Shown: positions 4,165-64,000 of the stretch, piece by piece
Position numbering within the stretch: the first letter of the stretch is position 1
How the letters are laid out: the number at the start of each line of letters is the position of its first letter
Origin: Trichomonas gallinae
Taxonomy: Eukaryota
Direction of reading: 5' to 3'
Assembly (NCBI GenBank): GCA_008369845.1
Contig: MRSU01005687.1
Span: 1 to 64,000 of the forward strand
Length of the DNA: 64,000 nt
Position numbers and translations under genes: made by a program
The notes under the pieces: generated by a model
Database searches by the model: none
Told to the model about the DNA's origin: nothing
The model's input: the letters and a program-made list of their open reading frames with translations, nothing else

Positions 4165-6111
4165 TTATTGCTTTTGTGCATCATGGTAGGTGTTGTAAGC
4201 TGTGAGAATTCTCTGGTATTCCTGCTTGAGCTTCTTGTATTGATTCTTAGAGAGTGGTTCTCCTTTGGCATCCTTTGTTGGGATGTTCTGCTCGTCCCAC
4301 TCTGAGTAGAAGTCTGTGAGGGATCTGTAGTACTCATCTGGGTGCATTGGGACGCCGTCCTTGATTGGCTTTGGCATCTGTGGACCCTTCTTCTTTGACT
4401 CAACTGGCTGCTGTGGCTTGTTCTTGAATGTCTGTGTTGTCTGCTTAGACTTCTTAGCCTCCATGAACTGCTTTGGATCGCCAAGCTTGAAGTCGACGTT
4501 ACCCTCAGCGTTATCCTCGAGCTTGATGCCGATGGAAAGGAGGGAGTCGTCTCTCATTGTGTCGAGCTGTGCCATGTTAGTCTTGACACCTGTCTCGAGC
4601 TGCTTGAGCAAATCAGCTGCAGCGCCTGTGTCCTTCTTGAGGTCGATGTTGAGGGCCTTGGCGAGCTCTCTGACCTGCTTGAGCATGTCGAGGTTGTTCT
4701 TCCTGACGTTCTGTCTGTACTGGCACATAGCCTGTGGGAAGCCAGCCTTGGCGAAGTCTGTAGAAGCCTGTGAGAGAAGGACTGTCTCTGGAGCGAAGCC
4801 GAGAACGGTCATGATGTTGTGGACGAGTCTGGCAGCGGAGATGACGAGGGAGTCAATAACCAAGTCTTTCTTCTGGTAGTATGCGTCGATGAGCTCGATC
4901 ATAGCGTCAATAGCTGCTGGGATATCGAAGTTGTCTGCGAAAGCGTCGTGGATCTTCTGTGATGTGACGGAGATCAAGACGGCGAAATCGTGGTCGTGTG
5001 GCTTGAATCCGTGCTTGAGCTCGCTGATGGACTTGTGGAGAGCTGCCTCGACTGTCTGCAAGAAGTTCATGATTCTTGTGAGCTTAACACGAGCGTGCTC
5101 GATGAGGTCGTCACCAAGCTGCATAACGTTCTGCCACTGGACGAGGCAGAAGATCATGCGGATGAGGTTGACGTCGTACTTCTTGAGGCCGTCAGCGATT
5201 GACCAGAAGTTGCCCATGGACTTGGACATCTTCTCGCCGTCAGCAGCGCGGAGCTGGCCTGTGTGGAGCCATGTGCGGACCCATGGTGTGGCACCCCAGC
5301 GTGTCTGTGACTGGGCGATCTCGTTAGTGTGGTGTGGGAAGCGAAGATCGATGCCGCCGCAGTGGACATCGAACTGCTTTCCATAGAAGAGTCCGGACAT
5401 TGTTGAGCACTCGATGTGCCAACCTGGGCGGCCCTTGCCCCACTTTGTTTCCCAGTACTGGCCTGCAGCCTCCTCGAATGGCTTGGCTTTCTTCCACAAT
5501 GCGAAGTCGTTACGATTGCGCTTCTTCTCGCCGGACTCAGCTGGGTTCTCGTTTTCAGCTGTTGATGTATATGAACTGCGTTCAAGCTCAGCGTAGACGA
5601 ATCTTCCATCATGTTCATACTTCTCGACGTCGAAGTAAACAGAGCCCTCGGATTCGTATGCGAAGCCCTGCTGGACGAGGTTATCGACGAAATCGATGAT
5701 CTCTGGCATAACTTCGGAAACGCGGAGAACTGAATCTGGGCGACGAACATTCAATGTGTCGAGTTCTGCGAAGAAAGCTTTCTCACGATCAGCAGAGTAG
5801 CCGAGTGCAGAGCCGTATTTGGCCTTATCTGCGTCATTCATTTTGTTGAATGTATCAATAATTTTATCGTCGATATCTGTGACGTTCATTGACCACTGAA
5901 CTGGAATATTGAAGTAGTCGGTCATAATGCGTCTAACCATATCAAGAGAAATGTATGTTCTCGCATGGCCAAGATGTGAAGTCGAGTAAACAGTTGGTCC
6001 GCATGTATAGCAGCGGAGTGGGAGGCCTTCTGGCCTCATGAGTGGTTGTTTTGTCTGTCCCAATGTGTTGAACACGCGAATTCCGGTATCGACCAGTTTC
6101 TCCGATTCCAT
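4165..6111 (-). CDS. CARS1: Cytosolic cysteinyl-tRNA synthetase
   Basis: CGPTVY, HLGH (HIGH), GRPGWHIECS, HCGGIDLRFPHHTNE and KMSKS motifs; eukaryote-type C-terminal YSEWDEQNIPTKDAKGEPLSK; strong GC3 codon bias. Confidence 0.97.
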   Translation of the reverse strand: MESEKLVDTGIRVFNTLGQTKQPLMRPEGLPLRCYTCGPTVYSTSHLGHARTYISLDMVRRIMTDYFNIPVQWSMNVTDIDDKIIDTFNKMNDADKAKYGSALGYSADREKAFFAELDTLNVRRPDSVLRVSEVMPEIIDFVDNLVQQGFAYESEGSVYFDVEKYEHDGRFVYAELERSSYTSTAENENPAESGEKKRNRNDFALWKKAKPFEEAAGQYWETKWGKGRPGWHIECSTMSGLFYGKQFDVHCGGIDLRFPHHTNEIAQSQTRWGATPWVRTWLHTGQLRAADGEKMSKSMGNFWSIADGLKKYDVNLIRMIFCLVQWQNVMQLGDDLIEHARVKLTRIMNFLQTVEAALHKSISELKHGFKPHDHDFAVLISVTSQKIHDAFADNFDIPAAIDAMIELIDAYYQKKDLVIDSLVISAARLVHNIMTVLGFAPETVLLSQASTDFAKAGFPQAMCQYRQNVRKNNLDMLKQVRELAKALNIDLKKDTGAAADLLKQLETGVKTNMAQLDTMRDDSLLSIGIKLEDNAEGNVDFKLGDPKQFMEAKKSKQTTQTFKNKPQQPVESKKKGPQMPKPIKDGVPMHPDEYYRSLTDFYSEWDEQNIPTKDAKGEPLSKNQYKKLKQEYQRILTAYNTYHDAQKQ

Positions 6112-15370: not shown

Positions 15371-17467
15371 TCAAATTTTTGATGAATTTGCAAATAACTC
15401 AACGAGATCTTGCTTTCTTCTGTTGTTTTTAGCGATATCAATAGATGAAACTCCTTTGCAAGACTTGATATTAGGATCAGCACCTTTGATCAGCATCTGT
15501 TTGATAAGATTCAACAAGAATTCTTTACCATTTCTATATTGTATTGTCAGAAGCATTAATGGAGTAACTCCTTTTGAGTTTCTCGCATTGATGTCTATGT
15601 CTTTGTATTCTGTAATAAGCTGCAGGGCAAATGCATAATTTTTAATTCCACAATGATAATGCAAAACGGTTTGGCACCTAAAATTGCGGATGTTTATATT
15701 AGGAATAATTTTCATCAAAATCTGATAAAAATCAATGCGTGTCTTAAACCTATGATGGAATGGTGATTTGCGTGGATTGAACTTAACAACATGTGGACTA
15801 AGATCTAAAATAAATTGAAGATGCTCTTGAGGATATGTTGTTAAAGAGAATTGATAACGAATTTCATGTTCATAAATGAAATGATATAACAAATCTAATC
15901 TATCGAACATAATTCTTTCATTAAACTGTTTGAACTTAGGAGATTGCAAGAAACATGACGCGAATTCAAAAGAATAGCCGATTAATTTTGCTAAAATAAA
16001 ATTATATTCTTTTTCCGTGATATTATTTGTGTTTTCGATTAATTCGTTGAAGACTTTGGTTCTTTCTGGTCTAGATTTCTTTAGGCTATATATGTCTTTT
16101 ATATTTTCCTTGTTTGTGTAGAAAACAGTGTAAAACTCTCCGTGATATAATTCTTTAAATCTTTCTTGAAATTTAAGTCCTGATTTTTGCAGATATAAAA
16201 CGATATTGAAGGATGTTGTTGCTAATGTAATAATATCATCAAAATACTTGGTTAATTTCGGGTGATTTATGTATTTTCCGAGTAATTCTGGATTATTGTC
16301 TGCTAGGAGGAGGAAAAATCCTGAAACGCAATGCTTGAATATTATGTTAAAATAAGGTAAATCAAAAAATGCGCTAATGAATTCTTCGTATGCACCAACA
16401 GCCATCCAAAGGATAATTGATTGACTCATATGATGTGTCTTATGATAATTCTTCAAGAGGTAGAGAGCAATTTCTTCATACCCACTTTTTAATGCTGAAC
16501 TAATCGCTTGGATTATATCAATCGATGAGACATAATTCATTCTTGGGAGAAGAGGGAAGAAATACTTGCAATTTGATCGCTGAAGTGGTGCATAGAATGA
16601 TGGTAGTATGTTATATTCAGAAATCATCCATTCAACTAATTGAAAATTATTACATCTTACAGCAATGTTCAATGGCTCCAATGGGTCTTGATTATGGTTC
16701 AAGCAGTATCGAACAATAAAAAGATCACCACCTTGGACTGCGCTGTTGAATGTTTCTTGGGTAATTTCGATATTGATTGAATTAACAAGATATTTGAAGA
16801 CATTGACTGATGCAAAGCGTGCAGATATGTTAATGAGTAATCCAGCGACGGTTTCAATGTCTTCACGTGATAATTCTAATTTTTGAAGTCCATCAAGGTC
16901 ATCCCATGCAGCATAGTACTCGTATGTATCCTTTGGATAGAGAAATTCTGTTTTTTCAAAGAGCGCAGCTGAACTGCTGAACTTTTTATGAGAATTTTTA
17001 TTTAATTCATTTAAATAGTTATTAAAATATGGCGATTCCCATTCCATGTTCTTGTCAATTGGTATATGATCGATAATTGATGAAAAAACTCGTTCTAAAG
17101 GTTTAATCAGTTTTGGTTTTGCTAAAGCGACAGTATCAAATAGTTGTAGAACGAAGACTTGATTTGATTTCTTCTTTTTGAGGAATTCTAGTAGTCTATT
17201 TGTAATTTTATCAACATTTTCCATAGAAATATTCCAAAATTCGTTTTCAATTTCGAGTTTCTCAATGATAGATTTATCCATGTCATCTGGTATTGTGTAT
17301 TCTGCCATTGAGAAGTCAGAAAGATCCGAATTGTATAAACTCGCGAAATCTTCTTCTTCATATTCGTCATAGTCTTCTTCTAACGAAAATGATTCATCTA
17401 CAACATATCTTTCCATATGAACTTCGAACTTATCATAATCTAAAATTTCACCATCACTACTTGACAT
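15371..17467 (-). CDS. Ankyrin-repeat protein (DUF3447-like region plus C-terminal ankyrin repeats)
   Basis: ATG at 17467 preceded by TTCATTTT (Inr-like). AAWDDLDGL, SARFASVNVFKYL and SAVQGGDLFIVRY are typical of trichomonad DUF3447/ankyrin proteins. C-terminal DINARNSKGVTPLM and GADPNIK. Confidence 0.85.
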   Translation of the reverse strand: MSSSDGEILDYDKFEVHMERYVVDESFSLEEDYDEYEEEDFASLYNSDLSDFSMAEYTIPDDMDKSIIEKLEIENEFWNISMENVDKITNRLLEFLKKKKSNQVFVLQLFDTVALAKPKLIKPLERVFSSIIDHIPIDKNMEWESPYFNNYLNELNKNSHKKFSSSAALFEKTEFLYPKDTYEYYAAWDDLDGLQKLELSREDIETVAGLLINISARFASVNVFKYLVNSINIEITQETFNSAVQGGDLFIVRYCLNHNQDPLEPLNIAVRCNNFQLVEWMISEYNILPSFYAPLQRSNCKYFFPLLPRMNYVSSIDIIQAISSALKSGYEEIALYLLKNYHKTHHMSQSIILWMAVGAYEEFISAFFDLPYFNIIFKHCVSGFFLLLADNNPELLGKYINHPKLTKYFDDIITLATTSFNIVLYLQKSGLKFQERFKELYHGEFYTVFYTNKENIKDIYSLKKSRPERTKVFNELIENTNNITEKEYNFILAKLIGYSFEFASCFLQSPKFKQFNERIMFDRLDLLYHFIYEHEIRYQFSLTTYPQEHLQFILDLSPHVVKFNPRKSPFHHRFKTRIDFYQILMKIIPNINIRNFRCQTVLHYHCGIKNYAFALQLITEYKDIDINARNSKGVTPLMLLTIQYRNGKEFLLNLIKQMLIKGADPNIKSCKGVSSIDIAKNNRRKQDLVELFANSSKI

Positions 17468-17859: not shown

Positions 17860-17940
17860 CGACGACCATGGGATTGGAACCCACGCGGATAAATCCACGG
17901 GATTAGCAATCCCGCGCCTTAACCACTCGGCCAAGCCGTC
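17860..17940 (-). tRNA. tRNA-Ser (anticodon GCT), type II variable arm; T-loop has C instead of purine at position 57
   Basis: Reverse complement is GACGGCTTGGCCGAGTGGTTAAGGCGCGGGATTGCTAATCCCGTGGATTTATCCGCGTGGGTTCCAATCCCATGGTCGTCG. It shows an acceptor stem, A-box TGGCCGAGTGG, CGGGA-TTGCTAA-TCCCG anticodon arm, GGA-TTTA-TCC variable arm and a G discriminator. Confidence 0.93.
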
Positions 17941-27730: not shown

Positions 27731-28339
27731 ATGTCTGAAGATAAACCTACTGGCTCACTTACAAGCCTTTTGCACGATAGCACGCCATCAACTGCGCCAA
27801 CAGTCAAAAAGGTCACCGCAGGACCTATAGTTTCAAGGAAATTCAACTCAAAACCACAAATTCCAGAAAATTATCTTTCTATTGCTAACGCATTCCTTTT
27901 GACACCAGATATGACAGGACCAACAGAATCTCCATTCCCCAATGAAGGATCCGCGCAGAAATCCGATACAGGAGATATAGAAGTTGTTCAGGAGACTAGA
28001 TGCATTTGTGGATTGACACACGGCTCATCAGTACAAATTCAATGCGATTCATGTCTTAAGTGGCTCCACGAGGATTGCGTTCATCTTAAAAATTCAAAAG
28101 AAGCAGATCCATTCATTTGCATTTATTGCCAATACGAAATTGCAAAATCCGTTAAAGCTTACGTAAGACAGCGCCTTGCATCTTTATTACCAAAAGCTCA
28201 GCAACTTGAAGTCGATATCCAAAGTGGTCGCCAAACTCAATATATGCCAATCTGGAACGAGCTAAGCGATATTGTTAACGATATTCAAGAGGTTCTGAAG
28301 ATGATCCCTGAATTACTTCACTCTGAAGATTATTCTTAA
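27731..28339 (+). CDS. PHD-finger protein
   Basis: First ATG at 27731. TRCICG...IQCDSCLKWLHEDCV...FICIYC is a C4HC3 PHD finger with the conserved Trp. Confidence 0.92.
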   Translation: MSEDKPTGSLTSLLHDSTPSTAPTVKKVTAGPIVSRKFNSKPQIPENYLSIANAFLLTPDMTGPTESPFPNEGSAQKSDTGDIEVVQETRCICGLTHGSSVQIQCDSCLKWLHEDCVHLKNSKEADPFICIYCQYEIAKSVKAYVRQRLASLLPKAQQLEVDIQSGRQTQYMPIWNELSDIVNDIQEVLKMIPELLHSEDYS

Positions 28340-31253: not shown

Positions 31254-31987
31254 TTATTCTGTTGAAGCAATTGCTGCTTGAATTGCTTGTTCACCTTGTG
31301 CTTTTCTCAACAGATTAGAAATTTTAGAGAGTTGGTAGTTCTCTGATATATTTAATGGCATTTTCCCTGCATCATTTTTAACAGAAACATTTGCATTAAA
31401 ACTCAAAAGAAGTTCAACCATTGGCTGACGATTCCATTTAACTGCTATATGAAGAGGAGTCCAATTAAAATACGATGAATGCTAAAATAAGTTAAAAATG
31501 AATTTCTTCAGCTGCATTAATATTAGCGTCGTGTTCAATAAGAAGCCTAGCAATATCAACATATCCCCAAAGAGCTGCTCTATGTAATGGTGTCCAATAA
31601 ATCAATAATGAATTCCATGAATATCTTTAACATTCGGATCAGCCTTATGCTCAAGTAACAAGTTAACAATTTGTGTATACCCAGCGAGTGCGGCAATATA
31701 AAGTGGTGTTCTATAAAATTAAAAATGAATATCATAAATGAAAAATGAATTTCTGCATCATTTGCACTAATATTCGCATCATATTGTATCAAATACTTCG
31801 CACAGTCATATGCTCCTGAAAAACAGGCAATATGCAGTAGAGTTGGGCGTACGATTTTAATTCCGTTTTTATCGAAGGTTGGTAATATTGTGTTTGGATT
31901 CACAATTTGTGGAGCCACTGTTTGTAATAATTCAACTTTGCGCTCCTCACATGCTTTAATCGCTGTCTGTATATCAGTAGCACTCAT
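31254..31987 (-). CDS. Ankyrin-repeat protein (~215 aa) encoded discontinuously: join(31987-31751, 31733-31731, 31712-31614, 31596-31504, 31486-31481, 31463-31254)
   Basis: Ankyrin repeats lie in shifting frames: PTLLHIACFSG, RTPLYIAALAG, WTPLHRAALWG, WTPLHIAVKWN. Removing five 17-18 nt elements gives exact 33-aa periodicity and one ORF ending GAA-TAAA. It could alternatively be a pseudogene. Confidence 0.8.
31464..31480 (-). other. Non-canonical micro-intervening element 3b (17 nt) ATTCATCGTATTTTAAT
   Basis: Lies between TTT-AGC and TGG-ACT-CCT-CTT-CAT (WTPLH). Confidence 0.7.
31487..31503 (-). other. Non-canonical micro-intervening element 3a (17 nt) ATTCATTTTTAACTTAT
   Basis: Lies between GAA-GAA and a 6-nt TTT-AGC micro-exon; contains an in-frame TAA. 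Confidence 0.7.
31597..31613 (-). other. Non-canonical micro-intervening element 2 (17 nt) ATTCATTATTGATTTAT
   Basis: Its removal yields the consensus KD-IH-G-W-TPLH; contains an in-frame TGA. Confidence 0.75.
31713..31730 (-). other. Non-canonical micro-intervening element 1b (18 nt) ATTCATTTTTAATTTTAT
   Basis: Lies between the GAT micro-exon and AGA-ACA-CCA-CTT (RTPL); contains an in-frame TAA. Confidence 0.7.
31734..31750 (-). other. Non-canonical micro-intervening element 1a (17 nt) ATTCATTTTTCATTTAT
   Basis: Lies between the GAA (Glu) codon and a 3-nt GAT micro-exon at the ankyrin hairpin. Confidence 0.7.
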
Positions 31988-32219: not shown

Positions 32220-32537
32220 ATGGAAGGTGTGAGTGAAGCACTTGTTGATGTAACTCATGGACCTTTGGATCCCCTTGAGCAGAAAATGGATAAGGTAATG
32301 TATGTTTTATTTCTAACAAATCAGAGAATTACAAAAAGAGTGCCTTGAATCTGTCAATAAAATTGAACCTCAAGGTTTGGATGAATTGAAGAGGGTAGTA
32401 TGTTTTAATTCTAACATCAGATGGCACAAGTGCCCGCATATATTGCTAAAATCAAAAAGATTCGCGCTGAAATGCAAGCATGTGATGAACTCGCCACTAA
32501 AATATCAAAAGGCATTGATAAGTTGGCAAAAGCATAA
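32220..32537 (+). CDS. Small coiled-coil protein resembling BLOC-1 pallidin/snapin; two short spliceosomal introns; join(32220-32299, 32325-32394 or -32397, 32421-32537)
   Basis: Spliced product is MEGVSEALVDVTHGPLDPLEQKMDKVIELQKECLESVNKIEPQGLDELKR(V)MAQVPAYIAKIKKIRAEMQACDELATKISKGIDKLAKA. The YIAKIKKIRAEM..TKISK..KL segment resembles pallidin YHAKLVNIRKEM..SKLKK..KL. Gene structure is well supported; the family call is moderate. Confidence 0.75.
32300..32324 (+). other. 25-nt spliceosomal intron GTATGTTTTATTTCTAACAAATCAG
   Basis: GT donor, TCTAAC branch point fused to a CAG acceptor; removal restores the reading frame. Confidence 0.9.
32395..32420 (+). other. 26-nt (or 23-nt from 32398) spliceosomal intron GTAGTATGTTTTAATTCTAACATCAG
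   Basis: GT donor(s), TCTAAC branch point, CAG acceptor; both donors keep the frame. Confidence 0.88.
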
Positions 32538-33267: not shown

Positions 33268-33949
33268 TAATATAAATTGTTGTTGGAAATTTTAAATTAT
33301 AGGGGCTATCTCGAAAAAACAGGGTCTAAAATGATATTAACTATTTTGTGTAACCCACTTTTTAAGAAATTCTGACATGTAAAAAGTCAAAAATGATGGA
33401 TTTGTCGCGTAAAAACGAAATTTTTCATATGTAATGTTACAATCGTGAAAACACGTCTGACATCTGACACACGACACTTTACAATGACAGATTTTCTAAA
33501 AAAGTGGGCAATTTTGGTTAATACGAAATGTTTCTATAATAGAAATCGTGTGTATATTTCAAATCATAGATCAAAAAGTATTATTAATGAATTTTCCCAA
33601 ATTCAGGAATTTTATTTGGATTCAATTGTCGTATAATTTATAAATATGCATCAATAATTGATAGTAATATAAAATATGAAAGAAAATATATATGTTATCT
33701 CTTACGTTTTTTCTTCGGGAATCGAAATATACGTGAACAAGTCTTCATTTTTCATTTCCAAATAGCATTATAAGCATATTATCATAATCCACTGTTCGAA
33801 GTAGATACAACACAAAAACAGATCTGTCAGATATATTGCCAACAGACAACCCCGTCTTTTTTTGAGCTCTACACATTGAACTATATTATCTCATGCTATT
33901 TATAACATTTTTAAATATTTTTAAAAATTCGGATTTCACTTCACATCTA

Positions 33950-36900
33950 ATGAGAACCTCCAATATAGGACTTATTGTAGATTCGTGGTTGAATATCCAC
34001 CAAATTATAGAGAAGTTAACAAACAATTCGACCAACAGAGTGATTTATGACTCGATTTCAGGTCCAATACAATTCACTTTTGTCGATTTCAACGCAAATC
34101 CAAACGCTAACTACAACTACATCCTTGTTGCGGTTGATCCCACAAAGCCACTTACCAAACAAGAGCAAACAAACTTAGCGAACAAGATCCCAAGAAGAAC
34201 TCCAGTTGGTGTTGTTGCTATCGCCAGGAAATCATGCGAGATTAAGCTCGCCGAGGAGATCAATGCCGATTTCAGTTCACACATTGACCTGACATCTGGC
34301 GAAGGCGCTGAAGGCGTTAGATACCTTCTCTCCCAGTTCGCTGCTGGCACACCAAACATCATCTATGACCCACCACACATATTAGACAAGTTCCAGAAGA
34401 TCTGCGGAATGGTTAATGATAGACGTGTTTTATCGTTCAAGGCAGCAACAAATACACAAGTTTGCACGAAAGCAGATGGAAGCTTCAAGAAACCAACAGA
34501 CTGCGGGTACACGTGGACAGATTTCGATAATACGAAACCATACTCTTGGGGCGAAACGCTGTACGATTGGTACGCATTCAAGGGCGAGTGCCAACTTCCA
34601 GATGGTTATGATGCCACAAAGCACACAATCCGCGTTAAATTCAATGTTGAGAGGAACTATCTCGTAAACAGATACAACGATAACACACCATGCGGCCCAG
34701 AAGGCAGATTCTGGTACAACGGCAAAACAATCGGCGCCATCGATGAATTTCATGACTCCCATATCGTCACTGAAGCCGGACCATGCGAACTCAGAGTTTT
34801 CACTGGCCGTTGCTTGAGCGGACACAGAACACTCAGCTTTGGTATCGAACTCACAGACAAGGCAACTGAAGCTTTGTACTACAGATTGTATTTCATGTAC
34901 CATTTGATCGACTTGCTCGAGGACACAAACCCAGACAAGTCCCGCCTCATCGCCATCGTCGATGCCGCTGTTCGCAAACTCGATATCAGAAACTTATCCG
35001 ATACAGTCTACTTGAAGCCAAACAGAGATCACGATCCACAGAACACAGCATTCTACGCATCAGTCCCAGCCGCTCTTGAAATCCTCAGAACAATCAAGGA
35101 TATCCGCGGTAAGCCAAGTGCTGATGATCCTTGCACATCAATCATGGGCTACTCGCACCTCGATACATGCTGGTTGTGGCCATACAACATCTCCAAGTAC
35201 AAGAGCGCCAACACAATCGCATCAATGCTCCACCTCATGGAGAACCCACCAGACGAGTTCGACAACCCAGTCCAGTGGCGCTACCTCGCTACAGCCGCCC
35301 AGCACTACAAGTGGCTCCAGGAGTGCGACAAGGATCTCCTCGACAGAGTCCTCCAGGCAGCCAAGAACGGCCGCTGGATCGTCGATGGCCTCTCATGGCT
35401 CGAGCACGAGTGCGTCCTCTTGAACGGCGAATCCATGATCAGGCAGATGCTCTACGGTAAGCGCGTCTTCGAAGGCGAGTTCGGACACAAGCAGAACTGC
35501 CTCTTCCTTCCAGACTGCTTCGGCTTCTCCGCTGCTTTACCACAGGTTTTGCAGGGCTTCGGAATCAACGAGTTCGTCACATCCAAGATTTCATGGAACG
35601 AATACAACGAATTCCCATACGACACATTCACATGGCGCGGCAACGATGGCAGCGAAGTCATGGCGCACTTCATCACAACAAACACATCCAAGACATCATG
35701 GAACACAACATACACAGGCGTCGCATCTGTCGCACAGCTTTTAGGCTGCTACGACCACTACAAGCAGAAGGATGTCTGCAGGCACGCCGCCTTGAACACA
35801 ATCGGCAACGGTGATGGTGGTGGCGGTATCACAGAGGACATGATCTGGAACATCAACCTCATGAACGAACTCCCAAGAATCCAAGGCGTTCCAGCTGTCA
35901 AATTCCCAACATTCCCAGAGTTATTCGAGGAAATCGAGCAGAACAAACCACTCCTTCCAGTTTGGGACGGCGAGCTCTACCTCGAGTACCACCGCGGCAC
36001 ATTCACATCCCAGGAAGAGACAAAGAGACTCAACAGGAAACTCGAGTACCACCTCAGGAACTGCGAGTTTTTGATGGTTGTCCTCGCTGCCAGATATGGA
36101 TACGACGCCAGCCAGCACATGGACACTATCAGAGACATCTGGGAGCAGACATGCCTCTTCGAGTTCCACGATGCTCTTCCAGGCACAACAATCAACGAAG
36201 CCACAATCGATATCAGAAGGCGCGGACAGACATGCCTCGACACACTCGTCGCTCTTGAGAGCAACCTCGCTTCTATTCTTGCTGACCACCTCAACTCCAA
36301 TATTGCTGTCTCCACAAAGGCACCATTCTATGGCTGGCAGACACAAGCAGCTGCTAACCCAGATAAATACACTACAACAATCACAGAGAGAATCAACACA
36401 AAGGAGCAGCAGGACATGTGGCAGGAGCTCAAAATCCAATGGAACGACGAAAACCCAAGAGTCTGCGACGACATTGAATTCGATGAAGCAACAAAGACAG
36501 TTAAGACTAAGCAGATGACAATCGTCATCAACGAGCATGGTGGCATCAAGTCAGCAGTTGTTGGCGACAGAGAGTTCATCGCTGAGAGCGCTTCTCCATT
36601 CAACCTCTACGAAGACAGACCACTCAACTGGCCAGCATGGGATATCCAGAGGTACCACAAGGAGATGCAGATCGATCCACCAGTCTTCGACAAACTCGAG
36701 AAGATCGACAACAAACACTTGAAGCTCACATGGCACATTAAGAAGGCCGGCGACGGACAAGCTGAGCTCACAACAATCGAGCAGGTCTGGACATTCTCCG
36801 GAACAACAATCGATATGGCAACATTCGTCCACTGGACACAGCACGACAAGCTTCTCAAGTATGTCATCCCAACAACAATCAGAGCCCGCAAGGCCAAGTT

Positions 36901-37603
36901 CGGTCTCCAGTTCGGCTACATCGAACGCGAGACGCACTACAACACACACCGCGACTTCGCTGTCTTCGAAGAGTCCGGCAGATGGGCTGATTTGTCCGAC
37001 GGCACAGGCGGTGTCACGCTCTGCTCTGATATCAAGGCAGGCTTCGACGTCCACGGCAACACAATGATGATGTCACTCCTCAAGGCTCCACAGGCTGTCG
37101 ACAAGTGGGCTGACTTCGGTGACAGAAGATTCATCGTCAGAATCGACTTCCATAACGAGCCATTCTCAGCACGCTCACAGATCCTCCACGATCAGATCAC
37201 AACACCAAACGCATTTGGAAAGGCAACAACATCCACAAAGAATGTCGCCGAGGAGTTCATAAGGATCCCAGACAACAAACTTCTTCTCACAGCTCTCAAG
37301 CTTGCTGAGGCTGGCGACGGCTTCATTGCTCGCTTCGTTGAGCCACTCGGCGGATGGACAAAGACAGACGTCGAGTTCCCACTCCTTGAAGGTGACTGGA
37401 CATTCAACTTAGTCACAATGGAGGAGCTCAACCCACAGCCAATCCAGTTCAAGGACAAGAAGATCACACTTGAAGCTAAACCATTCCAAGTCTTATCCGT
37501 CCACTTTAAGAAGAGCGGAAACATGATGAGCCCATCCAAGTTCTCAGGCAATTTCTACAGAACATCATTATCGATCGATATGTGCGGCGATGCTAGGTTT
37601 TAA
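33950..37603 (+). CDS. GH38 (class II, MAN2C1/Ams1-type) alpha-mannosidase with N-terminal extension
   Basis: ATG at 33950 follows the Inr TCACT-TCACA (33936-45). Motifs GYSHLDTCWLW (Zn-binding HxD), FLPDCFGFSAALPQ (nucleophile), GNGDGGGG, ELYLEYHRGTFTS and FHDALPGT. No signal peptide. Confidence 0.95.
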   Translation: MRTSNIGLIVDSWLNIHQIIEKLTNNSTNRVIYDSISGPIQFTFVDFNANPNANYNYILVAVDPTKPLTKQEQTNLANKIPRRTPVGVVAIARKSCEIKLAEEINADFSSHIDLTSGEGAEGVRYLLSQFAAGTPNIIYDPPHILDKFQKICGMVNDRRVLSFKAATNTQVCTKADGSFKKPTDCGYTWTDFDNTKPYSWGETLYDWYAFKGECQLPDGYDATKHTIRVKFNVERNYLVNRYNDNTPCGPEGRFWYNGKTIGAIDEFHDSHIVTEAGPCELRVFTGRCLSGHRTLSFGIELTDKATEALYYRLYFMYHLIDLLEDTNPDKSRLIAIVDAAVRKLDIRNLSDTVYLKPNRDHDPQNTAFYASVPAALEILRTIKDIRGKPSADDPCTSIMGYSHLDTCWLWPYNISKYKSANTIASMLHLMENPPDEFDNPVQWRYLATAAQHYKWLQECDKDLLDRVLQAAKNGRWIVDGLSWLEHECVLLNGESMIRQMLYGKRVFEGEFGHKQNCLFLPDCFGFSAALPQVLQGFGINEFVTSKISWNEYNEFPYDTFTWRGNDGSEVMAHFITTNTSKTSWNTTYTGVASVAQLLGCYDHYKQKDVCRHAALNTIGNGDGGGGITEDMIWNINLMNELPRIQGVPAVKFPTFPELFEEIEQNKPLLPVWDGELYLEYHRGTFTSQEETKRLNRKLEYHLRNCEFLMVVLAARYGYDASQHMDTIRDIWEQTCLFEFHDALPGTTINEATIDIRRRGQTCLDTLVALESNLASILADHLNSNIAVSTKAPFYGWQTQAAANPDKYTTTITERINTKEQQDMWQELKIQWNDENPRVCDDIEFDEATKTVKTKQMTIVINEHGGIKSAVVGDREFIAESASPFNLYEDRPLNWPAWDIQRYHKEMQIDPPVFDKLEKIDNKHLKLTWHIKKAGDGQAELTTIEQVWTFSGTTIDMATFVHWTQHDKLLKYVIPTTIRARKAKFGLQFGYIERETHYNTHRDFAVFEESGRWADLSDGTGGVTLCSDIKAGFDVHGNTMMMSLLKAPQAVDKWADFGDRRFIVRIDFHNEPFSARSQILHDQITTPNAFGKATTSTKNVAEEFIRIPDNKLLLTALKLAEAGDGFIARFVEPLGGWTKTDVEFPLLEGDWTFNLVTMEELNPQPIQFKDKKITLEAKPFQVLSVHFKKSGNMMSPSKFSGNFYRTSLSIDMCGDARF

Positions 37604-44367: not shown

Positions 44368-44920
44368 TTGTTAATAGTTACTTGTTAATATAAATTTGTT
44401 TGTTATTTCGTTCGAACTTATCATATTCATTTTGCCTTTATGCTGATCATATTACTTTTCATATTTTTTCAATTATTTCAAAATAACAAAATTGGATAAT
44501 ATGGGAACGATAAAGATGCTAACATTGACTAGGATAATAGGAATTGCGTGTCATATTACCTATTATGAAGGATAGAAAATTCAATCGCTGTGTGAATTCA
44601 TCCAACAAGTTTAGAATCATGAGTAGATCCTTTATATCCTGCATTTATTATGAATATATAGAGAACCGAGCGTTTGACTGTATTTATTGAGATATAAAAC
44701 CTTATTCGGACTCAGTTGGCAATTATAATTGTTATTTTTGATAGCTCATAATGCAATTAATACATTGCCAACCTTAGATGATGACAATATATTCTTGGAA
44801 AGTAATTTTTTGCAAGAAAATTAAATGAGAATAGCAGCACTCATATTTGTGTCATTTAGAGATATATTCATGTTCGCAAAAAACATATTTATCCGTATAA
44901 AAAAATTAACATCAATTCTA

Positions 44921-56844: not shown

Positions 56845-57221
56845 TGATGCATGAACTTCTAATGATGACATGTAAATACAACAAATGACGCGTAAATTTC
56901 TAATATTGACATGTAAATTTCTCAGAATTAGCAGATTTTTTTTAATATTGACACGTAAATCTGAACAATGACGCATAAAATCCAAATTATGTCATGTAAA
57001 CAATATTATGACATGTATAATTATCAAGGATATAAAGCAATTTCAAAATATTGCTACGATGTTTATGGCTTGTAAAATGGTAATGCATATAGAGCATTTA
57101 TATTCCAAAGTTTCAAGCTCGGAAATAGTATTTGCATGTGTGATTACATCTCTTTATTATGCTATATAAAAGCTATATAAATTTTCATATGACATGTAAA
57201 TATATAATTATGTCATGTAAA
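56845..57221. promoter_or_regulatory. Regularly spaced array of TGAC(A/G)(T/C)GTAAA-like motifs in a divergent promoter
   Basis: Copies at 56866, 56886, 56907, 56949, 56969, 56990, 57009, 57190 and 57211; a degenerate copy at 56845. Confidence 0.7.
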
Positions 57222-57247
57222 TGTCAAAATTCCAAAATAAAATCTGT

Positions 57248-60200
57248 ATGTATAACTTTCTTTTCTTGCTTATCCCATTTTTGGGATATGCAACGCTAAA
57301 TGCTACATTAGCATTGAAGCGGCGGAAACGAGAAAATGGTTTATCTAAAAGACAATTTGAAGAAGATTCAGAGGGAGAATTTTCTATTCAAAATGTCGAT
57401 GATGAATATGATGTTTCTAAGATCTCAATCAATAAAATATCATATCATGATCAAGATACCATTCTGTTTCCTTCAGAAACTGAAGTACAAATCGTAGTCG
57501 ATCAAGTGAACATCGAAAGAAAAACAGATGACTCATTAAATTCGGAAGATATTTACAAAGAAATAAGCACTCATGTTGTTCCATCTGTATTTTCTCATGC
57601 TTTACCTTTGATAAATATTCATTTTAATAAATTAATCGATCAAAATTCAAAAGAATCTACTGAAATTATACACACAGATGCATATATTGACTTTACTAAG
57701 TCAATTATTGAAATCAGCGATAGTGAAACTAAAAATTATCCAATAATTTTTGGAAAAAGCGACCAAGAAATCATAGAAAATCACCAAAAGTCAATCACAA
57801 AACGTCTGTGTTTGAGTGATATACAGAACGAAGTCACTGCTTTACCAGAAAATGATATGAATATTGAATCAAACGACGTTTTCGATCGCAATGTTAATCA
57901 TCAGTATTCAACCTTGACAGGAAATCCAATGCTTGGTATTTCAGGTAGGTCTACTTACGAAAAATTTGAACATCTCAGTACTCCAAAGATGAATTATGCA
58001 GATTATCGCGCAATCCCAATTATAGAAAGAGAAAATCTCAGTACTCCAGGTTCTAATAATTATCATGCAGGATCATTATATATTGAGGAAGATAGTGTCG
58101 AAATTGAAGAGGAAATCGAAGAAGAATATTCAGAAATACAGTCAGAACTTGACGAAACCAACGTTTCTAATCTCGATTCTATTGAGCCAATTAATACTCA
58201 GCCAATTCAAGAAAAATCCGAACAATCCAATGAAGAATTAGCACAAGACATCGAAAATGAGGCACAAATTACACAATCAAACGAAAATAATCAACTTACT
58301 AAATTCGATATTATATTAATTAACGAGTTTGAACAATTGTATGACTCATTACAAGAAAACACAAATGAAGAACAATATTCTAATCCAAATATTCAACTTT
58401 GTTCAAATACTCAAAATATTTCAATCGAACCACAAAATATCGAGAAACAAATGGAATTAGATGACAAACAAACACAAAAGGATTCTAATTCTGAACAAGA
58501 AAACCCAGAAGAAGAAAGTTTTGGTGAAATTTCAACTCGCAATGCTCAATTTGAGCAAAAAACATTTGAAATAGACAGAAATTCAGTTGTTGAATACGAG
58601 TTTGAGTCACAGCAAGAAAATGCCGAAGAAGAAAGTTTCGATGGAATTATTGAAGAAAGAAATGTTGACTTCAACATAATTCCATTGCAAATCAACAATC
58701 AATCACGCCATGAGGTTCATATTGAGAATGAGGAAAACCTTACTCTTTCATCAATTGAATATCAATTTATAAATTCACAAATCTCTAGGAATTTCGAAGT
58801 TTCAACATTAGATCCAATTAATATCTACAAAGAAAACAACATTGCAGAACTTAGCTTGTCGTTGCCTCGAGAACTCAATTTACCAATTATTCAGGAAGAA
58901 AAACAAGCAAATTCTACACCAATAGTTGAATCACAGAATGAATCTGTTGAAATTCCACAATCTATTGTTTCTGATTCTAATGAATTTGAATCAAATTATA
59001 TCGATTGGCCAAATCAACTCGAATCAAATGGCCAATTTGCTCTTCAAAATAATGAAATTGCTTCAATTCCTGAATCAAGCTTAAATATCGAACTTTCTGA
59101 TCTTGTTTCAGTTCTCGACATTAAAGCAATGCCAATTCCACTAGAAAACTCGGAATATCTCGAATTCGATTTCATGCATCAAATCAAGTTGTATCAAAGC
59201 AATCTTCAGCACGAAATTCATCTTCCAATCGGCGCAAATCAGCTAAATTCATTATCATTTACTGACAATGAAAACATTTTCGGCAATGAAGCGGAAGAAT
59301 TAAAGCAAAATCCTTCATTATCACTTTCCAGTACTGAAGAGGTATTTAACACATTCATTAATGACACAGCTACACTTAATCCTTTAGTATTTTCTCAAAA
59401 CGAATCAGAAAAATCGCCGAAACAAACTTCTTCATTGTCTCTTACTAACAATGAATATATTTTCAGTATTTACCAAATGAATCAACACAATCCTTTAGTA
59501 ATTTCTCAAATTGAGCAAATCTTCAACAATGAATCAAAAGAAATTGAAAAACAGTTGCCTACATTCTCTCATTCAAATAATGAAGAAATTTTCGATAATT
59601 ATTCTCAAATCGAACAAAACAACAACAATAATAAAGTAGACGTTTTAACAACAAAACAGTTGCCTACGTTGTCGTATACTAATGCTGAAGATATCTTCGA
59701 TTTTAACACTAGTGATAAGTATTCAATGATTCAACACAATCCTTTGGCATTTTCACAAATCGAACAAATCTTCAACATTGATAAAGAAGAGCAAATTCCT
59801 AAGAAATCCGAGTTTTACACAATTCCTGATATAGTTTTGTCGAAGAGTGAAACAGTCCAATTCAATGTTGATAATAAGGACGAAGCAAGCACATGGAGTA
59901 TTTCACTGACAGAATATTTCGGCTTTGGAGCCACAGAAAGTGTTTTGTCAATATCAAACGACACGATATATTATGACCAATCGCTTGAAGATGAAAAGAA
60001 GAGCAAGCTTGAGTCATCAAAAGTCGTAAGCTCTCACATTCCGTCGGAAGAGATCCATTTGGCTACGTCAAATGTTCTCGAGAAGCATCAGTTCATACCA
60101 TCATCAGCTTTAACACGCTCCCAGACTACAGAACTATTCTTCTTTGATTCAACAATGCTTCCTAAATACGGCTTCGAATTGCAAACATTCCAAGACGAAC

Positions 60201-63200
60201 AGCTTGATTCTTCAATCCCAGAATTCAAATTAAGCAACACACAGTTCCACAGTCCAATCTTTGAAAATCCATACACAAAGAATGTATATATGCAGACTTA
60301 TTATCTATACATTTCTCCTGACCAAGAAGATTTCGAAGAGAACATTTACCAAAACCCAGAAACTGAAGAAGAGAAGACAGTTAATCAGGAGCATTATCAA
60401 TTAATTATCAGTGATGTTTCAACAATTGATCGCGCATCAGTCGCACAACCAGTATCATTGGAAACATCAGAATTGATCGAAGGACAATCATTGGATCTCG
60501 ATGAATCTAAGGAGCTAGAAATTTGCGACTCAGCTGCTTTCATGATATCACCAGACGAAAACCACAATGAGATTTGCTCAATTCCATCATCACAGTTTGA
60601 CATTTTCTACAACCAGAATCTCTCGATTTACAATGACTTCACAAGCAGCATCGACATCAAATCGAAGCCGATTACTTTGTCGAAATTTACTTACCAGTCA
60701 ATATCAATCGAATCCGATAATGAAGCAATAGTATCAGACCGCAGCGCATTTGTTGATTACGATGGAGAAGGTCGTCGTGATCTTTCAAACTATTCTTCGT
60801 CTCCATTGAGCATTGCTCCTGAGTCCAAACCAGTTTTATCTTCTCAATCGCAACCTACTCTCACTGTTGAACCAGCTGAACACAATCTAGAGTTCTACAC
60901 AGGAGAATCTGAGTTGGTTGATTCAGCGTATCCGCTCTTCTTCATGAGTAATTGTTCTCATTTCTCCCTCAGCACAATTACACAAGATCTCAATATTGCT
61001 AAAACTCCATCAATTACCATTCATCCATCTCACTCGGAGCTTGAAGAAAATGTCAGCTTCACTCTTGATATTGACCATGCTTCGATTGAAGAAAAAAGCG
61101 AAGATAAGATTGAGAAACTCGTGTTTACAGATTATGAATCAATGTTAGAAGTTACTCCTTCTCAAACAATCAACTTTGAAGAAAAGTCCCAGAAATTAGA
61201 GTTTAATGATTATGAATCAGTATTTGAAGTTTCTCCTTCTCAAACAGTCACTGATGCTCAAACACAATCTCAAGTTATTCTACCTCAAACAGAAATTCGC
61301 AGCTATTCACCAGATTTGAGTGTTAGTTATATCCAGGAATACAGTCAATGTCCAGAGATAGAACTCACATCTCACAATGAAGTTTTGAGTGAAATCAATC
61401 CAATCACACAATCATTCTCAATCAGCGAACCTGGCTACAGAATGATCACTAATCCAGTAACAACCGAATTTGAGATTTCACAGAGTGATCCATTGTTTGT
61501 TGACAACAAAGTCGAACAACCTTCATCGAGACTTCATCTTGATCTTGTTTCATCATCATCAGATTACCACTTCATTGAATCTAAGCCAACGCTGACATAC
61601 ATGAAACCAAGTGAGCAGTTCTACTGCATCAAAGATTATCCAACCCTTCTTCTTAGTATTGATGAATTAACATCAGTTGACATTTGTGAAGTTTTGAAAG
61701 ACACATCTAATGATGATATCAATAGTGACAAATCTAAGGAAGAACATGTTCTTGCCATGCCAGAATTCACAATTTCATCTATTATTGAACTTCTTTCAAT
61801 TGAATCCCACAAGATCGAAGAAGATCTTCAAAATGATGAAAATGAAGTTCATTCTAGTGATATTCGTCTTCCATCACTTAATCTATCAACAATTTATGAC
61901 ATTTTATCAATTGATTCACCAACGAATGACATAACACTTTCATTCTCTACAGCAGAAGAATTCAGCATCAATGATCAATCATCCACATTGTCTCTACAAC
62001 AAGCTGCTGACCAGTTCTCCGTTTCACCTCATAAGCAACTTATTCCTCTTGATGTCTCATCAATCAATTCTCATGAATCAATTCGTGAACTTTCATTGGC
62101 CATGAGTCCGAAGAATGAGATATATGATGGCGATGCTGGTAAGAAACAATCAGCACTTTCAATCAATAACAATCAGCTATTTGATGTTGAGTCTGTTTCA
62201 AGTCCGAAGAACTTAACAACATACTCGTCCGGAGAAGGAATTTACATCCCATTACAAGTTGCAACTCTCTCAATCTCAGGGTCAGAACACCAAGAAATCA
62301 CCAATGTTTCAGCAATACTTAACATCACTGCCTGCGAGTCTACAGACATCAAACACGACCCACCGACATTCACATTCAGCAACGCTTACCAGTTCTTCTC
62401 TTCACCATCATTATCATACAAACCAGAGATTTCCATTTCAACTGATTTGTCATCTGAATATGAATCTCAAATGTCACCCGTTCAATATTGTATTTCATCA
62501 CAAGATCCAATCATCTCTGTCGAAACAAAAGAACACAAATTGTCATCATTCACAAGCGAATCATATAAGATTCCATCAACATCTCCCGAATTTTCATATA
62601 GTCAACCATCATATCTCACAATCAGCAGTGCTGCCGCTTCTTCACCTAGATCACCTAGCCGCTCTCCAGTCAAGCGCTTCACCCGTTCATCCAAATCAGA
62701 AATCACACATGTTTATGATGACTACATCCAGATCTCATCATCAATTAATCTTGAATCGAAGAATGATACCGTATTCGATTTAGAGTCGAATAATGCAATG
62801 TTCGAAATGAGTCAGTTGACACACACTCAATATCCAGGTATTTATGATGATTACAGCCCAGAACTTACAACAGAAATTATTGCTGAATATGAATATTCTT
62901 TAACACCAGCTATATCATATTTCAAATATGGCGATGTTTCTGTTTCTCCAATTATAACTGTACTTGAGTTCAGCACAATATCTCATTATGAATCTGAGAC
63001 TACAATCGACTCTACACAACATTCTGATGATGAAGATGCTCACAACAAGTTAGAGTTCTCTGAACTCAAGACAATCTTTGATGAACAACGTCATCAGTCA
63101 GAGCTTGCTGTCAGCGAATCATTTGCTGAATCTACAAAGAATGAAGAAGTTCACAAAGAATCTCCACAACTCTCAAAGTCTGACTTTGTTTTGTACTCAG

Positions 63201-64000
63201 TAGAATCTGCAGCAATTGATCTTGCATTTAGTGAATCCACATACATTTTCGAAGAGAGCAAAGATTTACAACCAACACTTTGCTCTCTTGAAGACTGCAC
63301 ACACGAATTCAATGCAGCTAAGATTGGCCTTGATAAATTCAATAGCGAACACATTTCCATTGTTCCAAGTGAACAAGAAATAGACTTTGATGTTTCATCA
63401 CGCGATGCTAATTTCGACCAAACAGAACGCAAATACATCAATCTTTCTATCACATCCAATGAAAGTGTTGATATTTTCTCACCAATCAAATCTCTTTCTA
63501 ACTTCAACTCCGAATCAGAACACAAGGAAATCAAGCGCGAAATCATTTCAAATGAGTCAGTAGATGTTGAATTATCTCATGCGCCACTTGAAATCAGCGA
63601 ATCTATATTATCACATGACAGTGCAGCGATGGAGCATCAACTTTCAATCTTCAAAGAAGAATTAGTTGATTATCCATCATCTAGTGAATCATTTGAACTT
63701 AGTCGAATCCATTACTCTGTTCATCATCCTTCACCAATTGAAACCAATTTGTCCGAATTCACATCAGAACCAATTTCAGTTTCTCCAACAGAAGTCAAAC
63801 ATGATTCTAAACACAATGATCTTTCCATCAATGATGCTGATCACTTAATAATCGAAGGAAATACATTTGCTTCTACTTTATCAATCCAATCTTTGAGCCC
63901 AGTTTTCATCAAACCTGTTGCACCGGTATTGAATTTCTATACTAGCGATGCTGAATCTGTTAAATCAACAGTGCCATTATTTGCTCAAAGCAACTTTGAT
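57248..64000 (+). CDS. Giant (>2250 aa, 3'-incomplete) acidic Ser/Glu/Ile-rich protein with N-terminal hydrophobic anchor
   Basis: ATG at 57248 gives MYNFLFLLIPFLGYATLNATLALKRRKREN.... The same frame reads ...VKSTVPLFAQSNFD at the window end. No stop-terminated ORF is listed in this frame, consistent with it being open throughout. Confidence 0.85.
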   Translation, partial: MYNFLFLLIPFLGYATLNATLALKRRKRENGLSKRQFEEDSEGEFSIQNVDDEYDVSKISINKISYHDQDTILFPSETEVQIVVDQVNIERKTDDSLNSEDIYKEISTHVVPSVFSHALPLINIHFNKLIDQNSKESTEIIHTDAYIDFTKSIIEISDSETKNYPIIFGKSDQEIIENHQKSITKRLCLSDIQNEVTALPENDMNIESNDVFDRNVNHQYSTLTGNPMLGISGRSTYEKFEHLSTPKMNYADYRAIPIIERENLSTPGSNNYHAGSLYIEEDSVEIEEEIEEEYSEIQSELDETNVSNLDSIEPINTQPIQEKSEQSNEELAQDIENEAQITQSNENNQLTKFDIILINEFEQLYDSLQENTNEEQYSNPNIQLCSNTQNISIEPQNIEKQMELDDKQTQKDSNSEQENPEEESFGEISTRNAQFEQKTFEIDRNSVVEYEFESQQENAEEESFDGIIEERNVDFNIIPLQINNQSRHEVHIENEENLTLSSIEYQFINSQISRNFEVSTLDPINIYKENNIAELSLSLPRELNLPIIQEEKQANSTPIVESQNESVEIPQSIVSDSNEFESNYIDWPNQLESNGQFALQNNEIASIPESSLNIELSDLVSVLDIKAMPIPLENSEYLEFDFMHQIKLYQSNLQHEIHLPIGANQLNSLSFTDNENIFGNEAEELKQNPSLSLSSTEEVFNTFINDTATLNPLVFSQNESEKSPKQTSSLSLTNNEYIFSIYQMNQHNPLVISQIEQIFNNESKEIEKQLPTFSHSNNEEIFDNYSQIEQNNNNNKVDVLTTKQLPTLSYTNAEDIFDFNTSDKYSMIQHNPLAFSQIEQIFNIDKEEQIPKKSEFYTIPDIVLSKSETVQFNVDNKDEASTWSISLTEYFGFGATESVLSISNDTIYYDQSLEDEKKSKLESSKVVSSHIPSEEIHLATSNVLEKHQFIPSSALTRSQTTELFFFDSTMLPKYGFELQTFQDEQLDSSIPEFKLSNTQFHSPIFENPYTKNVYMQTYYLYISPDQEDFEENIYQNPETEEEKTVNQEHYQLIISDVSTIDRASVAQPVSLETSELIEGQSLDLDESKELEICDSAAFMISPDENHNEICSIPSSQFDIFYNQNLSIYNDFTSSIDIKSKPITLSKFTYQSISIESDNEAIVSDRSAFVDYDGEGRRDLSNYSSSPLSIAPESKPVLSSQSQPTLTVEPAEHNLEFYTGESELVDSAYPLFFMSNCSHFSLSTITQDLNIAKTPSITIHPSHSELEENVSFTLDIDHASIEEKSEDKIEKLVFTDYESMLEVTPSQTINFEEKSQKLEFNDYESVFEVSPSQTVTDAQTQSQVILPQTEIRSYSPDLSVSYIQEYSQCPEIELTSHNEVLSEINPITQSFSISEPGYRMITNPVTTEFEISQSDPLFVDNKVEQPSSRLHLDLVSSSSDYHFIESKPTLTYMKPSEQFYCIKDYPTLLLSIDELTSVDICEVLKDTSNDDINSDKSKEEHVLAMPEFTISSIIELLSIESHKIEEDLQNDENEVHSSDIRLPSLNLSTIYDILSIDSPTNDITLSFSTAEEFSINDQSSTLSLQQAADQFSVSPHKQLIPLDVSSINSHESIRELSLAMSPKNEIYDGDAGKKQSALSINNNQLFDVESVSSPKNLTTYSSGEGIYIPLQVATLSISGSEHQEITNVSAILNITACESTDIKHDPPTFTFSNAYQFFSSPSLSYKPEISISTDLSSEYESQMSPVQYCISSQDPIISVETKEHKLSSFTSESYKIPSTSPEFSYSQPSYLTISSAAASSPRSPSRSPVKRFTRSSKSEITHVYDDYIQISSSINLESKNDTVFDLESNNAMFEMSQLTHTQYPGIYDDYSPELTTEIIAEYEYSLTPAISYFKYGDVSVSPIITVLEFSTISHYESETTIDSTQHSDDEDAHNKLEFSELKTIFDEQRHQSELAVSESFAESTKNEEVHKESPQLSKSDFVLYSVESAAIDLAFSESTYIFEESKDLQPTLCSLEDCTHEFNAAKIGLDKFNSEHISIVPSEQEIDFDVSSRDANFDQTERKYINLSITSNESVDIFSPIKSLSNFNSESEHKEIKREIISNESVDVELSHAPLEISESILSHDSAAMEHQLSIFKEELVDYPSSSESFELSRIHYSVHHPSPIETNLSEFTSEPISVSPTEVKHDSKHNDLSINDADHLIIEGNTFASTLSIQSLSPVFIKPVAPVLNFYTSDAESVKSTVPLFAQSNFD

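What the first reader, a model, noticed from the sequence alone, without database searches (positions are those of the whole stretch)
31481..31733. 3-nt and 6-nt micro-exons encode the variable beta-hairpin residues of the ankyrin repeats: possible combinatorial diversification
Seen: tandem elements enclose GAT (31733-31731, Asp) and TTTAGC (31486-31481, Phe-Ser). Both are multiples of 3, so skipping either keeps the frame. At junction 2 an extra ATTCAT (31622-31617) sits 9 nt upstream of the element and would be an in-frame alternative 5' boundary. Established: the D-x-x-G-x-TPLH hairpin positions contribute to the ankyrin binding surface and are among those randomised in DARPin libraries. 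Inference: alternative element or micro-exon use could produce variant binding surfaces from one gene, or gate expression of the protein.
Basis: inference. Interest (0 to 1): 0.85.

Follow-up and report, generated by a model that had tools for sequence, protein, structure and literature searches.

The report
Tiny AT-AT introns flanking micro-exons
An ankyrin gene of a Trichomonas parasite is broken by five 17-18-base inserts that start and end with AT; three of them are cleanly absent from a likely transcript of a close relative, so they are likely a new, very short kind of intron, and the 3- and 6-base exons between them are likely always kept, not shuffled for variety.

Summary
A minus-strand ankyrin gene (31987-31254; exon 1 is 74/79 identical to T. 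vaginalis TVAG_363260) has five 17-18-nt AT..AT elements in three hairpins, with GAT and TTTAGC between tandem pairs. Removing all five gives a 215-aa ORF. One contig of run X1, which behaves like RNA, lacks elements 2, 3a and 3b exactly and keeps TTTAGC. X1 shares 5 of 5 informative alleles with a 16-kb contig that keeps the junction 1 and 2 elements. A distant ortholog has 34 extra nt at all three hairpins, one parsed as 17+ATG+17. Diversification is not supported: orthologs keep hairpin length, the ATTCAT at 31622 encodes Ile-His, and skipping deletes residues, including the consensus-Gly position. The real finding is a likely new class of 17-nt introns with loose ends (A/G-T..A-T/G), below the 23-nt published minimum for Trichomonas, most likely cut by a length-measuring spliceosome (inferred). 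RNA evidence is one contig at depth 4.4, so rare isoforms are not excluded. The scan had noted AT-ending ankyrin introns in other eukaryotes; I found no note on this element.

The parts
31254..31987 (-). ankyrin-repeat gene, ortholog of T. vaginalis TVAG_363260; 215 aa after removal of five elements
31751..31987 (-). exon 1 (79 codons; unique N-terminus plus first ankyrin repeat, ends D-A-E)
31734..31750 (-). element 1a, 17 nt, AT..AT (predicted intron)
   Evidence: frame and ortholog alignment; a compatible 17-nt AT..AT read-through in T. vaginalis P0002; not bridged by X1
31731..31733 (-). 3-nt micro-exon GAT (Asp, hairpin position 4)
   Evidence: ortholog D-A-N-D-R; ATG micro-exon at the same hairpin of L001; weak end-of-contig hint in X1
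31713..31730 (-). element 1b, 18 nt, AT..AT (predicted intron)
   Evidence: X1 record ends at this boundary (table 8)
31614..31712 (-). exon, one ankyrin repeat; ends D-I-H-G
31617..31622 (-). internal ATTCAT: coding Ile-His, not a used boundary
   Evidence: kept in X1; D-V-H-G-W in P0010
31597..31613 (-). element 2, 17 nt, AT..AT; absent from the X1 contig
   Evidence: table 4 (17 left out at 31597); kept in P0001's contig
31504..31596 (-). exon, one ankyrin repeat; ends A-E-E
31487..31503 (-). element 3a, 17 nt, AT..AT; absent from the X1 contig
   Evidence: tables 5, 5c
31481..31486 (-). 6-nt micro-exon TTTAGC (Phe-Ser, hairpin positions 3-4); kept in the X1 contig
   Evidence: table 5c: its reverse complement stands between 31463 and 31504
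31464..31480 (-). element 3b, 17 nt, AT..AT; absent from the X1 contig
   Evidence: tables 5, 5c
31254..31463 (-). last exon (W-T-P-L-H ... stop); its own hairpin carries no element

Best explanation
The five 17-18-nt AT..AT elements are likely a previously undescribed class of tiny introns that are cut out of the RNA one by one, likely by a spliceosome that measures length and tolerates unusual end bases, so that the 3-nt and 6-nt micro-exons between tandem introns are likely kept in every productive message and rebuild a normal-length ankyrin hairpin. Shown: the elements, the restored 215-aa frame, exact absence of three elements with TTTAGC kept in one RNA-like contig, and 17-nt multiples at the same hairpins in distant orthologs. 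Inferred: that removal happens on RNA and not in a relative's DNA (about 0.85); that inclusion of the micro-exons is constitutive (about 0.8); that the machine is the spliceosome (about 0.5, from the invariant second base T and second-last base A in every confident parse and from a GT..AG member of the class in L001). Any retained element truncates the protein, so splicing efficiency could set protein level; this is untested.
For:: 17 nt left out at 31597 and a 40-nt joint 31463-31504 with the 6-nt micro-exon between, in one 250-nt contig; the placement of the 17-nt gap is unique; the 8 longest X1 pieces listed (of 16 laid) lie in or at the edge of ORFs, at contig depths from 3.4 to 77, as a transcriptome would; all 5 of X1's 8 substitutions that change the read-through ORF equal P0001, whose 16,205-nt contig keeps elements 1a, 1b and 2; the two remaining differences lie outside X1's cover and inside element 2; ortholog L001 has exactly 34 extra nt at 3 of 3 hairpins; junction 1 parses as 17 (GT..AG) + ATG + 17 (GT..AT); in P0106 only a 17-nt removal, of 40 lengths tried, restores the R-T-P-L-Y motif (ends GT..AC, inferred from protein); P0004 has 51 extra nt at junction 2; 7 of 8 measurable hairpin inserts are exact multiples of 17 and the eighth is 35. 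T. vaginalis P0002 is compatible with 17 nt + GAA + a second element while its interior has diverged.
Against: RNA evidence is one contig at depth 4.4 from one run whose RNA status is a guess, from a relative and not from the window's strain; junction 1 is not bridged. No conserved branch adenosine: the window's five elements have an A at -6 to -8, but L001 element 1a has no internal A and P0001 appears to have T at -6 of element 2; no TCTAAC branch site as in type B introns. In L001 junctions 2 and 3 a 17+17 parse needs one element ending TT or TG or starting GA; a 20+14 parse also fits. ORF fragments P0006, P0007, P0010 suggest longer inserts at the same sites in other lineages, so 17 nt is not universal. 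P0003 and P0004 are open at some junctions and closed at others, which shows that element-free genomic copies may exist in relatives.
Confidence: 0.72

Rival explanations
1. Same RNA-level removal, but by a non-spliceosomal nuclease and ligase (Ire1/RtcB- or tRNA-splicing-like) that measures 17 nt and is targeted to ankyrin-hairpin codons.
For: Strict 17-nt unit with loose ends; no conserved branch A; no other convincing case among 13 candidates from a window-wide scan, so the class looks tied to ankyrin hairpins.
Against: No conserved or unusually stable structure at six junctions (z from -1.56 to +2.12); second base T and second-last base A are the spliceosomal invariants; one member is GT..AG. 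Repeat duplication can also explain confinement to ankyrin repeats. Other ankyrin hairpins in the window carry no element.
Confidence: 0.25
2. One reading: alternative use of elements and micro-exons makes several binding surfaces from one gene.
For: Both micro-exons are multiples of three and skipping keeps the frame (214 and 213 aa). Micro-exon content differs among orthologs (Asp, predicted Glu, Met). Loose ends in L001 allow more than one parse with different residues at constant length. Contigs drop rare variants.
Against: The only transcript-like contig keeps TTTAGC and Ile-His-Gly. Skipped models align worse to orthologs. Hairpin length is conserved. In the window each tandem junction has exactly one parse with all four ends of the class. 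The gene is a conserved ortholog whose hairpin residues resemble those of distant orthologs, not a hypervariable one.
Confidence: 0.1
3. The elements are DNA insertions that make a pseudogene here, and X1 comes from a relative or paralog that never had them, or they are excised from DNA.
For: X1 differs from the window at 8 listed sites and its RNA status is a guess; P0003 and P0004 lack some elements on contigs of 4.6 and 3.9 kb.
Against: X1 carries the alleles of P0001, whose long contig keeps the elements; T. vaginalis G3 and L001 also carry inserts at the same hairpins with intact exons; a pseudogene would not keep 74 of 79 residues while element interiors diverge.
Confidence: 0.1
4. Reverse-transcription or assembly artefact, or ribosomal hopping over unspliced RNA.
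For: Low depth; AT-rich sequence.
Against: Three exact, frame-restoring removals in one contig with no repeat left at the joints (both = 0); hopping does not remove bases from RNA.
Confidence: 0.04

Closest known systems
Trichomonas type B spliceosomal introns (PMC6260720, PMC12316389; passages read)
   Same: Same lineage; very short; U-rich; tight length; degenerate 5' end
   Different: Type B are 23-26 nt, GT..AG, with TCTAAC branch site; these are 17-18 nt, AT..AT here (GT..AG, GT..AT in L001), lack TCTAAC, occur five to a gene, in tandem around 3- and 6-nt exons, only in ankyrin hairpins so far
Stentor coeruleus 15-16-nt introns (PMC9505925; passages read)
   Same: Comparable size, AU-rich, fixed length; window elements have an A at -6 to -8
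   Different: Stentor introns are mostly GU..AG with a nearly fixed branch A and are the genome's general intron class; here ends vary and the A is not conserved in orthologs
U12-type AT-AC introns and their terminal variants (recalled, not read here)
   Same: AT start; tolerance of first and last base with U at +2 and A at -2
   Different: No ATATCCTT 5' motif or TCCTTAAC branch site; far shorter
Ire1/RtcB introns of HAC1/XBP1 and tRNA introns (recalled; listings)
   Same: Short, frame-shifting, non-GT-AG removal that gates a full protein
   Different: No stem-loops or CNG-CNG motif seen (motif recalled)
Micro-exons and zero-nucleotide exons between minimal introns (10.1101/224170, search listing only)
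   Same: Tandem minimal introns with 0-6 nt between
   Different: Those use canonical spliceosomal signals

Membership tests
Trichomonas type B intron | GT..AG termini | tested here: not met
   5 of 5 window elements are AT..AT; one L001 element is GT..AG
Trichomonas type B intron | TCTAAC branch site 7-8 nt from the 3' end | tested here: not met
   absent from all five; best look-alike TTTAAC in 3a
Trichomonas type B intron | length 23-26 nt | tested here: not met
   17-18 nt
intron (any kind) | present in DNA, absent from mature RNA, frame restored | tested here: met
   three of five elements, one contig, relative with matching alleles, RNA status inferred
spliceosomal intron | U at +2 and A at -2 | tested here: met
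   5 of 5 window elements and the two L001 junction 1 elements; ambiguous for one element each at L001 junctions 2 and 3
spliceosomal intron | conserved branch adenosine | tested here: inconclusive
   A at -6 to -8 in the window, none in L001 1a
spliceosomal intron | lariat formation and snRNP dependence | not testable with these tools
   needs bench work; no genome held
Ire1- or tRNA-endonuclease-type intron | conserved RNA structure at both cut sites | tested here: not met
   six junction folds, none significant
U12-type intron | extended 5' and branch consensus (recalled) | tested here: not met
   sequence of the five elements
alternatively spliced micro-exon | both inclusion and skipping isoforms | tested here: inconclusive
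   only inclusion seen, one contig; contigs drop rare forms
ankyrin repeat (PF00023) | 33-aa repeat with TPLH-like motif | tested here: met
   four exons above the curated cut-off

The most novel reading that the evidence does not exclude
Parabasalids have a second, so far unseen RNA-excision system that cuts 17-nt units out of ankyrin-hairpin codons by ruler and not by splice-site sequence; it acts on many ankyrin genes now annotated as split or pseudogenes, and where ends are loose, a shifted register swaps hairpin residues at constant length, giving variant binding surfaces or an on/off gate for the family.
Probability: 0.15. Interest if true: 0.95.

Novelty: new variant of a known kind. 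Interest (0 to 1): 0.8.

Why it matters
Trichomonas is held to have only a few dozen introns, all GT-AG and at least 23 nt long (PMC12316389). That survey kept only junctions with GT..AG motifs and used STAR defaults, which by my recall report gaps under 21 nt as deletions, so 17-nt AT-AT introns would be invisible to it. If the class is general, part of the 923 frameshift-split genes of the 2007 genome, an open question restated in bioRxiv 10.64898/2026.08.31.748405, may be intact spliced genes; this can be tested at once on public reads. Introns this short with free end bases, spliced around 3-nt exons, would also test what a splicing machine minimally needs.

Tried and rejected
No whole genome is held, so no genome-wide count and no snRNA search. 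No RNA holder on record was listed for the stretch; X2 and X3 laid nothing on the gene: no evidence either way. X1 gave no cover across junction 1 and none in several intergenic bins; gaps in cover are not used as proof. Search with the last exon for longer proteins found none, so no full-length spliced protein was recovered. The representative search was swamped by long generic ankyrin proteins; it added only P0099 and P0106. Genome contigs: no relative. Viral contigs pattern: 13 matches, none with a 17- or 34-nt insert. Plasmids: no match. Atlas: generic ankyrin clusters. Rfam: only a tRNA in the window. Folding: no conserved structure. Window-wide scan for other frame-restoring elements: 13 candidates, 1 in this gene, the other 12 not convincing by eye. 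The alternative boundary at 31622 was rejected. Literature: ten searches found no description of such elements; TVAG_363260 is absent from the main text of PMC6260720 and from three supplement files of PMC12316389. The library lacks most subscription papers, and bioRxiv supplements could not be seen; the split-gene tables of the readthrough preprint may list this gene. Exact DARPin randomised positions were not found in the passages read and are recalled.

Full report
Observation. The minus strand holds an ankyrin gene from 31987 to 31254. It is interrupted at three beta-hairpins by five AT-rich elements: 31750-31734, 31730-31713, 31613-31597, 31503-31487 and 31480-31464, of 17, 18, 17, 17 and 17 nt. 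Each starts ATTCAT and ends TTAT or TAAT. In the window 14 of 128 ATTCAT sites fit this pattern, six of them inside this gene, against about 0.02 expected in 290 nt. Of 17 removal subsets printed (of 32), only removal of all five gives the full 215-aa frame; leaving any one in stops translation at 83-157 aa. The four longer exons each match PF00023 above cut-off.

Identity. Exon 1 is 74 of 79 residues identical to T. vaginalis TVAG_363260, annotated as an 88-aa protein that ends just after the first junction. The window is therefore a close relative of T. vaginalis.

Evidence for removal from RNA. Three runs were listed; none is a recorded RNA holder of the stretch. One 250-nt contig of run X1 (depth 4.4) lacks exactly 31597-31613 and joins 31463 to 31504 with six letters between, the reverse complement of TTTAGC. 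So elements 2, 3a and 3b are gone and the 6-nt micro-exon stays. X1 is only guessed to be RNA. On a 20-kb stretch the eight longest of its 16 laid pieces lie in or at the edge of ORFs, with contig depths from 3.4 to 77, as expected of a transcriptome. X1 is a relative, so I asked whether its DNA could lack the elements. All five X1 substitutions that change the read-through ORF match protein P0001, which comes from a 16,205-nt contig and reads through elements 1a, 1b and 2; the two remaining differences lie outside X1's cover and inside element 2 itself. The same allele set thus exists with the element on a long contig and without it in X1. Junction 1 is not bridged. The X1 record is laid through 31714 with one letter left over, which fits GAT inclusion or retention of 1b but not skipping of GAT; this is a one-letter hint.

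Orthologs. A metagenome contig (L001) holds a distant ortholog with exactly 34 extra nt at three of three hairpins. Junction 1 parses as 17 nt GT..AG, ATG, 17 nt GT..AT. Junctions 2 and 3 are ambiguous: a 17+17 parse needs one element with a TT or TG end or a GA start, and 20+14 also fits. In P0106 only a 17-nt removal among 40 lengths tried restores the R-T-P-L-Y motif; P0004 has 51 extra nt at junction 2. Seven of eight measurable inserts are exact multiples of 17 and the eighth is 35. The T. vaginalis read-through is compatible with 17 nt, a 3-nt exon and a second element, with a diverged interior. Against uniformity, P0006, P0007 and P0010 suggest longer inserts, and P0003 and P0004 are open at some junctions and closed at others. 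The positions of the elements inside the hairpin also differ between orthologs.

The micro-exons are real, but they rebuild a hairpin of standard length. Five of five open ortholog hairpins have three residues between D/E and W/R. Among 527 hairpins in 147 long ankyrin proteins, 481 have four residues between D and T, one has three and 15 have two. Skipped models keep the frame but align worse to orthologs. GAT encodes the position that is Gly in 282 of 481 hairpins; by my recall that position is framework in DARPin libraries, and the passages I read (PMC8683736, PMC8229355) confirm only that randomised positions form the binding surface. The ATTCAT at 31622 is kept in X1 and encodes Ile-His; P0010 has Val-His-Gly there. 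In the window each tandem junction has only one parse in which all four ends fit the class. Diversification is thus unsupported, though one low-depth contig cannot exclude rare forms. Gating by retention is possible, since every retained element truncates the protein.

Mechanism. I commit to a spliceosome that measures length and tolerates end bases (about 0.5), because the second base is T and the second-last is A in every confident parse and one member is GT..AG. Against it, the branch A is not conserved: window elements have an A at -6 to -8, but L001 element 1a has none. The main rival is a nuclease-ligase with a ruler (about 0.25); folding of six junctions showed no structure. A scan of the window found no other convincing case, and other ankyrin hairpins in the window are uninterrupted. 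The neighbouring Snapin-like gene carries two ordinary type B-like GT-AG introns of 25 and 23 nt, which shows how different the known short class looks in the same genome.

Comparison with what is known. PMC12316389 (passages, three supplement files searched) reports 63 introns in T. vaginalis and 81 intron-bearing genes in T. stableri, a 23-nt minimum, STAR defaults and a GT..AG motif filter. PMC6260720 (passages) defines type B with TCTAAC. The elements fail three type B features. They approach Stentor's 15-16-nt introns in size (PMC9505925, passages) but not in ends. The readthrough preprint 10.64898/2026.08.31.748405 (abstract, first part of Results, passages) notes 923 frameshift-split genes as unexplained and does not invoke splicing in what I read. 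PMC10711314 (passages) lists one rare GT-AT junction in Giardia. Ten searches found no report of this class; subscription papers and bioRxiv supplements were out of reach. Earlier scan notes mention AT-ending introns in ankyrin genes of other eukaryotes; I did not test them, and none is on this element.

Verdict. Observation confirmed; interpretation partly supported. The micro-exons are a by-product of tandem tiny introns, and the tiny non-canonical introns are the discovery. New variant of a known kind; interest 0.8.

Noticed in passing
window 32220-32537 (+): Small gene with two type B-like GT-AG introns (32300-32324, 25 nt; 32398-32420, 23 nt). Removing both gives an 89-aa ORF; its last exon matches Snapin/Pallidin PF14712 positions 54-88 of 89 (E 0.0023, below cut-off). 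Both end TCAG, not the AACAG of the published type B search motif, so they may be missing from published lists.
   Followed up: partly
protein P0004, C-terminus: A further insert seems to start at the fourth hairpin (after N-I-K-N-D), where the window gene has none; elements are gained or lost hairpin by hairpin.
   Followed up: no
   Followed up: no
window 44425-44441 (+) and 28111-28126 (+): Look-alike ATTCAT..TTTAT stretches, one after the end of an ORF and one inside needed coding sequence of a PHD-like finger; the motif alone does not define an element.
   Followed up: no
window 15371-17467 (-): DUF3447-ankyrin gene with an unbroken 698-aa frame and no elements.
   Followed up: partly
window 17860-17940 (-): tRNA gene of 81 nt by Rfam; anticodon and possible intron not checked.
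   Followed up: no
window 33893-37603 (+) and 4165-6111 (+): Two genes with GC near 45-49% against about 33% around them: a glycoside-hydrolase-like gene and a cysteinyl-tRNA-synthetase-like gene (names recalled from motifs, not searched). X1 also holds a diverged paralog of the first.
   Followed up: no
window 57221-64000 (-): Open frame of at least 2260 codons, acidic and low in complexity, running off the window end.
   Followed up: no
L001 1-2900 and 3760-6612: Neighbours of the ortholog differ from those in the window (a long PI3-kinase-like ORF, name recalled from motifs) and show no such elements.
   Followed up: no
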